A stretch of DNA of 64,000 bases. Source: Eledone cirrhosa. Lineage: Eukaryota. Positions 48,281 to 57,364 of the stretch are shown here, one piece after another; within the stretch, counting starts at the first letter, position 1; each line of letters opens with the position of its first letter. The notes under the pieces were generated by a model, which was given only the letters and a program-made list of their open reading frames with translations, was not told the origin of the DNA and did no database searches. The stretch lies in the NCBI GenBank assembly GCA_964016885.1, contig OZ024754.1, forward strand, positions 45,260,001 to 45,324,000. Reading direction: 5' to 3'. Position numbers and translations under genes: made by a program.

Positions 48281-48435
48281 TTCATTATTTCTGAAGACGG
48301 CGTATATATGTGTTAGGTATGTATATTTAATCTTGATAATTTGTATAATTTTGTATAATTTTGTACATAGATCTGTTGAATATGCATACCAATTATAACA
48401 CATATATACCCTAGAAACGATCGTTAAATAGTGAA
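48281..48435 (+). ncRNA. Type I hammerhead ribozyme with a 10-bp stem I and a ~115-nt stem II
   Basis: Stem I ttcattattt/aaatagtgaa, CTGAAGA 48291-48297, GAAA 48414-48417, stem III AC-GATC-GT and a GUU triplet (predicted cut after 48425). Confidence 0.8.
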
Positions 48436-48630
48436 CTTTTTTTGTTTAATATAAGGAATTGTTTGTTCATTATTTGTTTAATATTTTATCTTGACTCTGT
48501 ATACCGTTTATCTTTCACCGAAAGTGGATTTTCATTACATCTCTTCTTTCCATGATATCCGGAATACATATACATTGAGTTCTTCATACGGATTGGACAC
48601 TACCGTAAACTCTTGGTAGATTTATCTACA

Positions 48631-49836
<1,206 letters not shown>

Positions 49837-50063
49837 CCTAACAGTGCAGCGAATTATCTCAGTAGAAATAGTTAATTACTTATGTACGCACTGTTACATA
49901 AACGTTTCTGTGAGGGAAATTAATATCCCACTTCATGATTTTTCTGAGGTTAATAATTGTTATCTCGTCTGAAATAAATTAGCTACAAAAGTTAATGGAA
50001 AACTCATCAGGATTATATCTCCGTGTCTCAATTGGAATTGAATTGATTTATTATGAAGCGTTA

Positions 50064-50254
50064 TGGTGGATTGGCAGTATCGGTAGAGGGTTGGACACTA
50101 TGCTTTGACGCATAGAGTTACGGCCCTTGCCATGTTGAGTTCGAATCCCGCCGAGGTTAACTTTGCCTTTCATCCTTACGGGGTCAATAAAATAAAGTAC
50201 CAGTAATGCACTGGGTCATTGCTGGCCTTGTGCCAAAAAGTAGAAACAGTTATT
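50064..50254 (+). mobile_element. tRNA-derived SINE (main family, well preserved); the central domain resembles the Meta/MESC-type domain
   Basis: A box tggcagtatcggtag, B box gagttcgaatccc, central gcctttcatccttacggggtcaataaaataaagtaccag and 3' ggccttgtgccaaaaagtagaaac-TTA. The domain assignment is from recall, not a search. Confidence 0.85.
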
Positions 50255-50413
50255 GTAAGATCTTCAAAAACAAAATAAATAAGATAGAATATGATAGTTA
50301 TTCTGAGTAAATCTCATGTAAAGTATCAATTCTTACTCTATATCTCTTTCTCATTCTCCCCTCTCTCTTCTCCAGCTCTCTCGCTCTAGTCGCGCCCCGC
50401 TCTCTCTAGTCCA

Positions 50414-51544: not shown

Positions 51545-52901
51545 GTGAATGTGTACATTGATAAACGGGAATTTGTGTATATCTATATTTTGTTACTTAG
51601 TATTTGTATATAAGGGAAGTAAAAGGCAAAGACATGCAAAAGAAAAGTCATTCACGTGTATAGACGGCTGAATAGAATCTGTTGAAATGTTCCTTCATAT
51701 AGTTAAACAGGAATATATATATTTAAAATAACAGATAACGAGATCATATTTATACGGCGAACTACACAGCCATACTCTCAAATACACACACATATACACT
51801 TAGGTTTATCTCTCTCGTTCTATCTCTCTCTCGATATATATATATGCACGAATATATATACATATGTATGTATCTATATGTTTTAGTAGAGAGTAGGTCT
51901 TCAGGATACTCCCACTTCAGCAATGCTAACTTTAACTCTGAAACATCCTCTAACTAATGAAGCCCAGCCCTTGGCCTTCACCTGGCAGAACTATTTGGAT
52001 CTAACAAGAAGAAAAACAAAGCAAGTTACGGTGTAAAACCAACACATTTACCTCTATCCTAATCACTATAGGGAACTATTTTCTTTGGCTCATTATTTAA
52101 GTATAAACACACACACATATGTATTTCTGTATATTTGTGTGTTCTACTATGGATTGGGTGAATTCTTCTTATTATTTTAATTATAAAGAATCTGGCATCG
52201 CTCTCAATTATACCTGTCACAGAATTGACAAAAGTCCGAAATATTTTTCTTCAACAAACAAACACCGCTCGGTGTTTATCAAATTACAGTAATGTAAATA
52301 TATAGATAGAAATCAGTTTGAATTTGATTATCGAAAACGTTCGATTTTATTGGGTGAAAAACAAACTTCTAATTGATCTATTCCAAATAAAGAGTAAACA
52401 ACGAACCTTATATATTTTACAGTTGACTATTTGTAGTTTGACAAATACTAAATATACACTGTTTTAACATTGAGGTGGAGGGAAAGGCTATGATTTCAAA
52501 GCAAGTGAGGATCAATAGATATATTTTGTACACGTAGTGTGAGGGTATGCGAATATGAACCTGGTGGATATAGAAATTATAAAGAAACATGTCGAGAAAT
52601 GTATATATATATATATATTCTAAAGTCTTGATCAGTAAATTATCAATCATACATCGGCTCACAAATTGTTGACTTGTATCAAACTGGAATTATTGCAATA
52701 GCAATATCATCGAAAATAATTACATAGAAAAAGGAGATATAATTTGTCTCAATGAATAATCACAGCAGATATAAAATTCAGTAAATCAAACAATCTACTG
52801 GCTTCACTGTATTCTATTAATGTACAGAGATAATATATAGAGGAAATAGATATTTCATTTATACATATTTGTACAAACATAAATACGCACACTCTCGCAT
52901 A

Positions 52902-52906
<5 letters not shown>

Positions 52907-52953
<47 letters not shown>

Positions 52954-52959
52954 AATATA

Positions 52960-53013
<54 letters not shown>

Positions 53014-53070
53014 AATATATATATGTACATATATATATACATATATATACTGTATATATATATATACTGT

Positions 53071-53119
<49 letters not shown>

Positions 53120-53236
53120 TATATACTGTATATATGTATATATATATATACACATATATATACTGTATATATGTATATATATATATACACATATATATAC
53201 TGTATATATGTATATATATATATACACATATATATA

Positions 53237-53291
<55 letters not shown>

Positions 53292-53833
53292 CATATATTT
53301 ACTGTATATATGTATATATATATACATATATATACATATATATACTGTATATATATATATATATACATATATATACATATATTTACTGTATATATATATA
53401 TATATATACATATATATACATATATTTACTGTATATATATATATATATATACATATATATACATATATATACTGTATATATATATATATATACATATATA
53501 TACATATATTTACTGTATATATATATATATATATACATATATATACATATATTTACTGTATATATATATATATATATACATATATATACATATATATACA
53601 TATATATACTGTATATATATACATATATATACATATATATATACATATACATATATATACATATATATACATATATACATATATATACTGTATATATATA
53701 TATACATATATATACATATATACATATATATACTGTATATATATATACATATATATACATATATACATATATATACTGTATATATATATATATACATATA
53801 TATACTGTATATATATATATATACATATACATA

Positions 53834-53896
<63 letters not shown>

Positions 53897-54133
53897 CATA
53901 TATATACATATATATACATATATATATACATATATACATATATATACTGTATATATATATATATATATATACATATATATACATATATATACATATATAT
54001 ACATATATATACATATATATACATATACATATATATACATATATATACATATATATACATATATATACATATATATACATACATATACATATATACATAT
54101 ATATACTGTATATATATATACACATATATATAT
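52907..54133. repeat. ~1.2-kb (TA)n array with CTG and CA interruptions
   Basis: Read directly. Confidence 0.9.
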
Positions 54134-54206
54134 GTAACAAAGGAAATGTGGTAAGAAACCAGATGGACCATAACGCACCAGAGTACTCAATACTTAGAGT
54201 AGTAGT

Positions 54207-54209
<3 letters not shown>
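54134..54209 (-). mobile_element. Family D PLE tail fragment
   Basis: Minus strand ctactctaagtattgagtactctggtgcgttatggtccatctggtttcttaccacatttcctttgtt matches 33673-33738. Confidence 0.8.
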
Positions 54210-54263
<54 letters not shown>

Positions 54264-54268
<5 letters not shown>

Positions 54269-54421
54269 TATGTGAGAGTGTGCGTATTTATGTTTGTACA
54301 AATATGTATAAATGAAATATCTATTTTCTCTATATATTATCTCTGTACATTAATAGAATACAGCGAAGCCAGTAGATTGTTTGATTTACTGAATTTTATA
54401 TCTGCTGTGATTATTCATTGA

Positions 54422-54425
<4 letters not shown>
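54264..54425 (-). repeat. Inverted duplicate of unique flank 52745-52906
   Basis: 162-bp reverse-complement match with 3 visible mismatches, bounded by (TA)n on both sides. Confidence 0.9.
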
Positions 54426-54511
<86 letters not shown>

Positions 54512-56275
54512 CATCTGTTTAAAATGGTTTAACCACTGTCAGATAGAAAATACTCAATGGAAAATCAATACAGGTAAAGAAAGTGTTTAATATTTGACGA
54601 AACCAATATTTACAAAACAGTTTAATTATAACGAAAATAAGTAAATATTGTCAGTCATTTTCATTCACAGACTCTCCCAGAGGTTGTCAGTGGTTATAAA
54701 ACAAACGATCATCAATGTTGATTTCTTCACAAAAGACATATTTTAAACACTATTTACATAATAGATGTCATTTACGAAGATGATAATTGAATAAAATATA
54801 CTCTATTTAAATCACATACATACTGCCTCATATATATGTATCGATATATAATATATATATCTATATATTTACATATGTATATATATGTATCTATATATAA
54901 TATATATATATATGTATATATTTACATATGTATATATATATATTTGTTAATTTGTTTTTATATAATGTCGCTGGGATATAACGTTTGCATAGGGTATTTC
55001 AAAGACGAAGGAAAGAAAGAAAAGTGAGCTTCGGTATTTTTTATTATTAAATATGTTTTTCGCCCTTATGGGGTCGATAAAATAACCACTAAGCCTGGTG
55101 TAGAATTAATTGACTTTCCCATTCCTTTGTTTTTTGTCTATCAAATACTAACTTTGCCTATGTGCGTTTTTTTAAAAATAATAAATTGTAGGGTTAAAAT
55201 ACTTCTTATATTGTTGGAAATATAAAACAGTTATTTACATATATGGTTAAGAAGAGAACAATTCACATCGACGTAAAATCAACCGCTGAAATGCAGGCAT
55301 TTAATTTGATGCCATACGCACAATGTTTCACTTCACAAACTAACTTAACACCAGTATAGTCCCGTAGACTCTGCTGAAGCAGAAGAAGACATGACAGATT
55401 TAAACCTAGTAAACAATAATTTCTTGTGGCGAGAGTTATAAGTGAGTGACAAATATTTCGAAAGAATTCCATGAAAAGGGAGAGATGTTTCCCGTTTGGT
55501 TTTCTTTTTGGTAGGGGTTGTTTATATTCTTTAATAATCAGCGAAATTTTTACACTTGTGCATAAACACACATTTGCTCTCTCCCCCTCTCTCCCTTTCT
55601 TTCTCACTCTCTGTCTAATTATCACACACACGTACTCACGTACACACTCACTCAATCACACACCCACACCCACACACACACATACACACGCCCATATCCT
55701 CTTACGGGTTTCAAATGTAGTGCGTCCATTATTGGATATTTCCATCCTTCAGGGGTTTAGTCAAGTCTCAAGGAATAAATATCTAAATAATACTCAATAT
55801 CTGTAATTTTAATTCAAATATAGCTCGACACCATTCTCTGTTTCTTATGGTGCACCAACGACAAAATGGAATTATGGTGCTTATATATTTCTATGATTGA
55901 TATAGAAAACGTGAAAGGATACTACAAAGTAATTCCCTTAACATTCATATTGCAACAGGTTACGTACATTCTAAACTGTGATTGGCCTGATGAAAATATG
56001 TAAACATCATCACTGCTTTATTCGAGTTCAGATGGAGGACATAAAAATTGAAATATTTGTGCGAACTTGATGAAGACTAAATTGGTATCCGCGTATAAGT
56101 CGATCACTATCAAATACATTTTGAGAAACCGGGTTAAGTACCCGAAGAATTACACGTGATATTTATATATAATACATATACACATACCAGATACACATAC
56201 ATGCATACACACACTTATGTATGTACGTATGTATGTATGCATGTATGTAGGTATGTATGTTTGTATTATGTATGC

Positions 56276-57039: not shown

Positions 57040-57364
57040 GGATTGCATTATGCCGACAACATGCTTCGCGGCATAGAGTTAAGGCCCTTTACGTTCATAT
57101 TCCCTATGGATCTTTTTTTTTTGTATCTCGTTAATTAAATAAATATTTCGTATTTCCCGGTTATAATTTTATAATTTCTATTGCAAAGGGCGGTGGATTG
57201 GCATAATCGGTTGAGCGTCGGACAACATGTTTAGGGGCATAGAGTTACGGCCCTTAACGTTCTTAGTTCAAATCCCACCGAAGTTAGCTTTGCCTTTCAT
57301 CCTTACAGAGTCGATAAATAAAGCACCAGTGACAGCGTTGTGCCTAAAGTAGCAACACTTATTA
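57040..57364 (+). mobile_element. SINE fragment (57040-57095) and SINE copy (57189-57364)
   Basis: Match to the main SINE family (gttcaaatccc, gcctttcatcctt, ttgtgcctaaagtag). Confidence 0.8.

What the first reader, a model, noticed from the sequence alone, without database searches (positions are those of the whole stretch)
52745..54425. Second inverted flank duplication with the same polarity, around a 76-bp family D tail
Seen: unique 52745-52906, then a 1.2-kb TA array, the family D tail pointing left (54134-54209), (TA)n, an inverted copy of the unique flank (54264-54425) and (TA)n again. The duplicated DNA is again the flank beyond the element 3' end, deposited on the 5' side. There is no gap here, and 3 mismatches in 162 bp argue against a simple read-level artefact. 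A different family repeats the 40140/49837 pattern.
Basis: partly seen in the sequence, partly recalled or inferred. Interest (0 to 1): 0.72.

Follow-up and report, generated by a model that had tools for sequence, protein, structure and literature searches.

The report
Fold-back duplication at a TA repeat
A 162-base piece of unique DNA sits twice, back to back, around a TA repeat that also holds the tail of a very common Penelope-type jumping gene; it likely arose when a broken TA end folded back and copied its own neighbour, an event that turned up about as often at TA repeats without this jumping gene in the sample checked, so it is mostly ordinary.

Summary
In detail: 52745-52906 and 54264-54425 are inverted copies (162 bp, 3 transitions, two at CpG, one per arm) and occur nowhere else in the genome. 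'Family D' is the 3' tail of a Penelope-like retroelement with Hydra-clade motifs (718-aa RT ORF, at least 21,600 copies, inserted in (TA)n). The proposed rule (3' flank always copied to the 5' side during insertion) did not hold. Inverted flanks bracket 4 of 161 D units and 13 of 761 TA tracts without D (p=0.52), and polarity went both ways (3-4 versus 2-3). Here the copy lies outside D's usual second-priming junction, (TA)n-GGA, so it is most likely a TA-primed fold-back made apart from the insertion. Capture during insertion does occur: at L242 a mismatch-free copy of the 3' flank (at least 162 bp) lies between D's two cDNA arms. Similar fold-back duplications are published for human L1. 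Earlier notes of this scan already reported two-sided priming and Hydra-clade elements on other DNA of this genome. Reads could not test the junctions.

The parts
52745..52906 (+). Original arm (A): unique DNA, continuous with upstream unique sequence, ending in the TA array
   Evidence: no hit in 269 other loci
52905..54133 (.). 1.2-kb interrupted (TA)n array (C, CTG, A, G interruptions, internally re-duplicated); first 31 nt are pure TA
54134..54205 (-). 3' tail of family D, a Penelope-like element with Hydra-clade motifs (positions 68-137 of the reference 33602-33738); 3' end points left into the TA array
   Evidence: family ORF in L303
54206..54208 (-). GGA stub directly after the 5' TA tract: the first three bases of the inverted piece that starts most D copies (inferred second-priming junction; 3 nt could be chance)
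   Evidence: 174 of 326 units begin (TA)n-GGA; 188 of 232 inverted pieces start at one position
54209..54265 (.). Pure (TA) tract, 57 nt; inferred fold-back primer
54264..54425 (-). Inverted copy (A') of 52745-52906, 3 transitions
   Evidence: its alleles at two sites are in a Logan contig of run X19
54425..54508 (.). Pure (TA) tract, 84 nt; outer junction to the right flank, with only 1 nt of exact homology (imperfect ATATAATT versus ATATATAT)

Best explanation
This is a 162-bp inverted duplication of unique DNA beside a (TA)n tract, likely made when a broken TA end folded back on its own strand and primed DNA synthesis, and likely in a separate event from the insertion of the Penelope-like tail that lies between the arms. 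Shown: the two arms, their uniqueness, the identity of D, and similar inverted flanks at TA tracts without D at a similar rate. Inferred steps: (1) a nick or break in (TA)n, from a PLE endonuclease or from the fragility of the repeat; (2) resection exposes the plus strand; (3) because (TA)n is its own reverse complement, the 3' end pairs with the pure TA next to 52906; (4) a DNA polymerase copies 162 nt leftwards to 52745; (5) the new end joins the TA overhang of the right fragment through 1 nt or imperfect homology. D entered the same TA region by ordinary two-sided (twin) priming, before or after; the order is unresolved.
For: No enrichment at D: 4 of 161 versus 13 of 761, p=0.52; 5 of 230 TA blocks whose flanks are not TA-abutting repeat ends also have inverted flanks. 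Polarity is mixed: same in 3 (+1 possible), opposite in 2 (+1 ambiguous) (binomial p=1.0). One-sided fold-backs are not in excess on the 5' side: 11 versus 25 of 307 units. The inverted 5' piece of D behaves as a second priming on RNA: 188 of 232 start at one site, in 47 the inverted arm reaches more than 10 nt further upstream than the forward arm, and 25 do not overlap it. The finding has that junction, (TA)57-GGA, between D and the copy, so the TA tract was most simply already the flank when D's second primer fired. Two of the three mismatches are CG/CA changes, one in each arm (read), as expected from germline decay after duplication.
Against: The GGA stub is only 3 nt and may be chance. 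Capture during insertion with exactly this polarity is real at L242 and L085. Event numbers are small, so a modest enrichment or polarity bias cannot be excluded. All 13 control events have repeat DNA on at least one side, 7 of them TA-abutting element ends that may be independent insertions, so they are imperfect analogues of a unique-DNA arm; the only clear unique-arm analogue was L227. The 5' side is harder to anchor than the 3' side, which may lower the 5' counts. Ages do not separate the models: D has 1 private change and nearest neighbours at 2 of 68 nt, against 0.63 expected from the arms.
Confidence: 0.5

Rival explanations
1. Made during D insertion: the first cDNA, linked to the left flank, stopped after about 70 nt, slipped onto TA, folded back on its own strand, copied the flank and was joined to the other broken end.
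For: L242 shows this class directly: at least 162 bp of the 3' flank, no mismatch, lying between D's inverted piece and D's forward copy, with a 4-nt microhomology TTCT/AGAA. L085 has 36-41 bp of 3' flank fused to a truncated D 5' end with AGT shared. Polarity and arm length match the finding. L1 precedent in PMC10191854 and bioRxiv 2024.12.14.628481 (passages).
Against: In L242 the copy is inside the second-priming junction; here it is outside. A cDNA ending at position 68 holds no template for the TCC that precedes the TA57. No enrichment and mixed polarity for TA-bounded copies.
Confidence: 0.32
2. RNA-templated capture: the right-hand TA end primed the PLE reverse transcriptase on a minus-strand transcript of the target locus at the AT-rich patch by 52745, copied the flank and TA, then switched to D RNA at the GGA site.
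For: Explains both the polarity and the position outside the GGA junction. This enzyme primes on about 3 nt of TA homology. One co-inserted local pre-mRNA is reported for L1 (PMC10191854, passage). L139 has the same layout with an 18-20 bp copy.
Against: No evidence of transcription was sought or found. The three mismatches are not A-to-G on the minus strand. Opposite-polarity cases exist (L227, L130).
Confidence: 0.07
3. Assembly or haplotype artefact: the two arms are the two alleles of one locus, wrongly joined through the self-complementary TA.
For: A Logan contig of run X19 carries the copy's alleles in line with the upstream unique flank. No contig was laid on the right flank 54518-54830 in X18-X20, and no piece spans either junction. 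The window has other inverted repeats beside an N gap.
Against: The arms share 61 identical bases before the first difference, so short-word contigs cannot phase them (my inference about how such contigs are built). A false join would need a junction at 52745, which is not a repeat. A read fold-back chimera would not carry three differences. Inverted flanks with a range of divergence occur across the sample.
Confidence: 0.09
4. The arms are terminal inverted repeats of a DNA transposon or MITE.
For: Two inverted arms around a spacer, with TA beside them.
Against: Only two copies in 3.0 Gb; the left arm runs on into unique DNA with no matching outer boundary.
Confidence: 0.02

Closest known systems
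Short fold-back inversions (inverted duplications) at somatic L1 insertion sites (Nam et al. 2023, PMC10191854; Mendez-Dorantes et al., bioRxiv 10.1101/2024.12.14.628481; passages read)
   Same: Local genomic DNA of about 52-220 bp duplicated in inverted form next to a TPRT insertion, at 0.3-0.4% of insertions, explained by self-annealing of a 3' end that primes synthesis (TA/AT homology in one case).
   Different: There the duplicated DNA is 5' of the target site, on the reciprocal end; here the original lies 3' of the element, the primer is a long (TA)n, the element is a PLE, and the link to the insertion is not shown for this locus.
Inverted duplications as a structural-variant class in humans (PMC12350158; passages read)
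   Same: Most common small inversion class outside mobile-element insertions (277 events, median 284 bp), mostly with 1-15 bp microhomology.
   Different: The passages read do not tie them to (TA)n tracts or PLEs.
Hydra clade of EN+ Penelope-like elements (Craig et al. 2021, PMC8557442; sections 6 and 11 and passages read)
   Same: Single short ORF with DKT, CxCX5C linker, CxxC and CxH motifs; insertion in (TA)n; inverted 5'-truncated copy and a one-sided tail.
   Different: The parts read describe inversions of element sequence, not of host flank; the tail here is about 78 nt against 30-40; the hammerhead core is a variant.
Flank-derived 5' extra nucleotides at LINE junctions (PMC4245944; passages read)
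   Same: Sequence at the 5' junction copied from flanking DNA during 5' joining.
   Different: Described as several nucleotides, not 160 bp; orientation not given in the passages read.

Membership tests
Hydra-clade EN+ PLE (family D) | Single ORF, element under about 3 kb, telomerase-like RT | tested here: met
   718-aa reading frame in L303; model pLDDT 92.7, best Foldseek match TERT 3du5, E 2.8e-8. Pfam gave no family for two partial ORFs and the PDB sequence profile gave no significant hit.
Hydra-clade EN+ PLE (family D) | DKG changed to DKT; RWK motif | tested here: met
   DKT at residue 116, conserved 98/100/93% in 110 sequences; RWR rather than RWK near the N terminus (not scored across the alignment).
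Hydra-clade EN+ PLE (family D) | [quoted passage not shown] | tested here: met
   C571-x-C573-x5-C579, C669-xx-C672, E675, N688, C697-x-H699, each 99-100% conserved.
Hydra-clade EN+ PLE (family D) | C-terminal GIY-YIG endonuclease lacking CCHH | tested here: inconclusive
   VIY...YIG with conserved R and H by motif; the 50 Foldseek rows shown were all polymerases; absence of CCHH was not formally tested.
Hydra-clade EN+ PLE (family D) | Insertion in (TA)n with an inverted 5' copy | tested here: met
   337 of 356 3' ends are followed by TA (most loci were picked by a TA-ending pattern); 232 of 337 have an adjacent inverted piece.
Hydra-clade EN+ PLE (family D) | Canonical hammerhead ribozyme in the pseudo-LTR | tested here: inconclusive
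   Three-way junction with CUGAGAA...GAAA and GUC in the lowest-energy fold, but z = -0.49; no Rfam hammerhead hit; core differs from CUGAnGA.
Hydra-clade EN+ PLE (family D) | RT phylogeny within the Hydra clade | not tested
   No named reference proteins were in hand.
Insertion-coupled fold-back duplication (L1 type) | Copy joined directly to cDNA or lying inside the insertion | tested here: not met
   The copy is separated from D by TA57 and lies outside the GGA junction; met at L242 and L085.
Insertion-coupled fold-back duplication (L1 type) | Absent from the pre-insertion allele | not testable with these tools
   Contigs break at TA; RAD runs do not cover the site.
TA-primed fold-back inverted duplication | Both inner ends abut self-complementary repeat; outer junction with little homology; only two copies | tested here: met
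DNA transposon / MITE terminal inverted repeats | Multicopy arms with matched outer boundaries | tested here: not met

The most novel reading that the evidence does not exclude
Penelope-type insertion into (TA)n leaves two free, self-priming TA ends, and the enzyme or its repair helper regularly jumps from the element RNA onto local host sequence (own-strand DNA, perhaps the locus's own transcript) and back. With more than 20,000 copies of this one family and about 1% of insertions affected, PLEs would be a standing source of hundreds of small inverted duplications per family in the germline, and this locus would be one of them.
Probability: 0.3. Interest if true: 0.55.

Novelty: new member of a known kind. 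Interest (0 to 1): 0.3.

Why it matters
How PLEs finish an insertion is an open question (PMC8557442 calls for an in vitro system). This locus alone says little about it. The sample does give two usable facts: inverted flanks at TA tracts are a background event of about 2% in this genome, which any claim about insertion footprints must control for; and a rare class (L242, L085) shows host flank captured between or against the cDNA arms, evidence that the first cDNA end can fold back on its own strand in a PLE, as published for L1. Six library searches listed no paper on flank capture by PLEs; the library lacks most subscription journals, and no supplements were read.

Tried and rejected
Rfam scan of the window: the 150 rows shown (of 420) were all below-threshold microRNA matches to simple repeats. 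Reads: of 23 runs listed, 5 were laid; runs X1-X17 had shares near 0.1 and were not used. X18-X20 are one sample and may be the assembly's source; they show both allele sets but no spanning piece; RAD runs X21 and X22 do not cover the arms. Snap-back of the first cDNA as the source of D's usual inverted piece was rejected because the inverted arm often reaches further upstream than the forward arm or does not overlap it. An RNA-editing signature in the three mismatches was looked for and not found. Identical tail-to-tail D pairs as self fold-backs: 1 of 13 pairs had no mismatch (L086), so not general. Dating D against the arms was not discriminating. L116, L247, L254, L021, L068, L220, L289, L235 and L174 were set aside from the polarity tally as tails or internal repeats of other elements, direct duplications or old unpolarisable repeats. 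A Neptune/Nematis assignment, my first guess, was dropped for Hydra after reading the clade description. The Pfam scan of the whole alignment was not obtained.

Full report
Observation. Positions 52745-52906 and the reverse complement of 54264-54425 align over 162 bases without gaps and differ at 52806 (A/G), 52843 (G/A) and 52897 (G/A). A search of the 3.0-Gb own genome finds only these two copies (that search states that it skips very common words). Between the arms lie an interrupted TA array (52905-54133), a tail of family D on the minus strand and a pure 57-nt TA tract; a pure 84-nt tract follows the copy. The only N run is 41012-41211. Two of the three differences are CG versus CA, with the CG kept once in each arm, which fits CpG decay in both arms after duplication (sequence reading plus general knowledge).

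What family D is. A 31-nt pattern from its 3' end has 10,901 + 10,699 exact matches and 0 for the reversed control. Long copies lead to a 718-aa reading frame (L303). It has 2,218 relatives among 7,998 candidates scored, almost all unnamed. Pfam gave nothing for two partial frames and a PDB sequence profile gave nothing significant, but the predicted structure (pLDDT 92.7) matches telomerase RT best (E 2.8e-8). The motifs that Craig et al. 2021 list for the Hydra clade of Penelope-like elements (PMC8557442, section 11 read) are present and conserved in a 110-sequence alignment: DKT, CxCX5C, CxxC and CxH around E and N. The endonuclease is identified by motif only. A hammerhead-like three-way junction lies just upstream of the tail, with a variant core and no Rfam match. 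The Hydra lead came from earlier notes of this scan and was then checked here; no tree was built.

How D normally inserts. I examined 269 loci (1.87 Mb) plus the window: 29 best BLAST hits, 80 regions from the first listed matches on contig C1, and 160 from two variant patterns on C1 and C2. L001-L003 (the window itself) and L033-L062 (lying in or overlapping the larger regions) were left out. They hold 337 D ends followed by TA, of 356. Of 326 units, 174 begin (TA)n-GGA on the 5' side. Of 337, 232 have an adjacent inverted piece; 188 of these start at one position; in 47 the inverted arm reaches more than 10 nt further upstream than the forward arm (up to 1.6 kb), in 12 the reverse, and 25 do not overlap the forward arm. 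This is what priming from both cut TA ends on the RNA predicts (twin priming; name seen as a citation in PMC10191854), and earlier notes reached the same view on other DNA. The finding's D piece reads (TA)57-GGA followed by positions 68-137. I read GGA as a 3-nt second-priming stub; other short stubs of 6-9 nt exist (L279, L243, L248), but 3 nt could be chance.

With one criterion for both sets (an 18-mer flank, at most 1 mismatch, inverted across the block), 4 of 161 D units and 13 of 761 TA blocks not touching D have inverted flanks (Fisher p=0.52). Restricting the control to blocks whose flanks are not TA-abutting repeat ends gives 5 of 230; all five still lie in repeats found in other loci, whereas the finding's arm has no such hit. 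A looser junction scan of 307 units gave 7 with the 5' junction matching the inverted 3' flank, 4 the reverse, 11 fold-backs on the 5' side and 25 on the 3' side, with direct-match controls of 6 and 5. Read by eye: same polarity as the finding in L242, L085 and L139, possibly L173; opposite in L227 (unique arms) and L130 (primed at a GT repeat), and opposite or independent in L069; L116 is two different element tails. There is no detectable bias, though numbers are small.

Two classes. L242 (G000:C2:84545847-84553846) has, in element orientation: TA, D's inverted piece, at least 162 bp of the 3' flank inverted with no mismatch and a 4-nt microhomology, TA56, a short second inverted piece, D forward, TA24, then the flank (my alignment was clipped at its edge). 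The host copy is inside the insertion, so it was made during it. L085 has 36-41 bp from about 500 bp downstream fused to a truncated D 5' end. That is 2 of 314 usable units (the window's own included), close to the 0.3-0.4% of L1 insertions with short fold-back duplications in Nam et al. (PMC10191854, passage); self-annealing of a resected 3' end is the model in bioRxiv 2024.12.14.628481 (passages). The finding, L139 and L227 are the other class: a copy bounded by TA on both sides and lying outside the D junction, in either polarity, at background rate.

Mechanism. I therefore favour (0.5) a TA-primed fold-back apart from the insertion: break in (TA)n, resection, self-pairing of the 3' end with the pure TA next to 52906, 162 nt of synthesis, joining to the other TA end with 1 nt or imperfect homology. 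All five steps are inferred. D came before or after; the pure 57- and 84-nt tracts beside an old interrupted array weakly suit a later fold-back. Coupling to the insertion remains a close rival (0.32) because L242 proves such events exist with this polarity and size. Ages do not decide: D differs from the family majority at 5 of 68 nt, 4 of them shared variants, with nearest neighbours at 2, against 0.63 changes expected from the arms.

Reads. Three runs of one sample hold the region. X18 has a contig with the left-arm alleles and X19 one with the copy's alleles at 52806 and 52843, so both sets exist in raw data; the X19 contig runs on into the upstream flank, which such contigs cannot phase but which also fits a second haplotype. 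No piece spans a junction, none was laid on the right flank 54518-54830, and two RAD runs gave no coverage of the arms. An artefact is kept at 0.09.

The 40140/49837 pair. It is unique to two places, but the copy is about 8 kb from the element's 5' end, beyond an N gap and a 2.3-kb inverted repeat, so it does not confirm a shared rule.

Verdict. A real, small inverted duplication of a known kind around the tail of a known kind of element. The proposed fixed-polarity mechanism is not general; a rarer insertion-coupled form exists and is best seen at L242. Six searches listed no paper on flank capture by PLEs; PMC12350158 and PMC4245944 were read as passages; supplements were not read.

Noticed in passing
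L242 = G000:C2:84545847-84553846, around locus 3750-4450: At least 162 bp of the 3' host flank, inverted and mismatch-free, lies between the two arms of a family-D insertion with a 4-nt microhomology: the clearest case of flank capture during PLE insertion.
   Followed up: partly
L085:4911-5010 and 5568-5607: 36-41 bp from about 500 bp downstream is fused, inverted, to a truncated D 5' end with 3 shared bases.
   Followed up: partly
window 41212-43513 / 44254-46578: 2.3-kb inverted repeat at 98-99.7% identity starting right at the 200-N gap; could be a young fold-back or an assembly join.
   Followed up: no
window 33542-33740 and 7636-7741: Two more family-D copies; the first is a perfect 59-bp palindrome plus tail, the second has a 19-bp inverted piece.
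   Followed up: yes
window 31132-31560: Internal piece of what reads as the family-D ORF region with a 63-bp inverted duplication (31132-31194 / 31434-31496), next to a TA array; recognised by eye from the translation, not aligned.
   Followed up: no
window 13541-14091 and 48282-48637; L238:5800-6690: Another TA-targeting family, once as a 387-bp palindrome; in L238 it forms a 430-bp tail-to-tail inverted pair across a 30-nt TA tract with 6 mismatches.
   Followed up: no
window 9219-9825 / 11233-11844, 5085-5700, 37936-38577: Further inverted repeats bounded by TA arrays; the last is a fold-back made of simple-repeat units only.
   Followed up: no
L086:4528-4637 / 5416-5525 and L021:917-1702: D copies duplicated in inverted form together with intervening DNA (L086: 109 nt without mismatch).
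   Followed up: partly
L014:1585-1715 (minus strand): Hammerhead-like fold with a CUGAGAA core and a long stem-II insertion; cleavage untested.
   Followed up: partly
window 21740-24512, 35711-35917, 50063-50256, 57055-57363: A dispersed short repeat of about 190 bp, not TA-bound, in many copies and both orientations.
   Followed up: no
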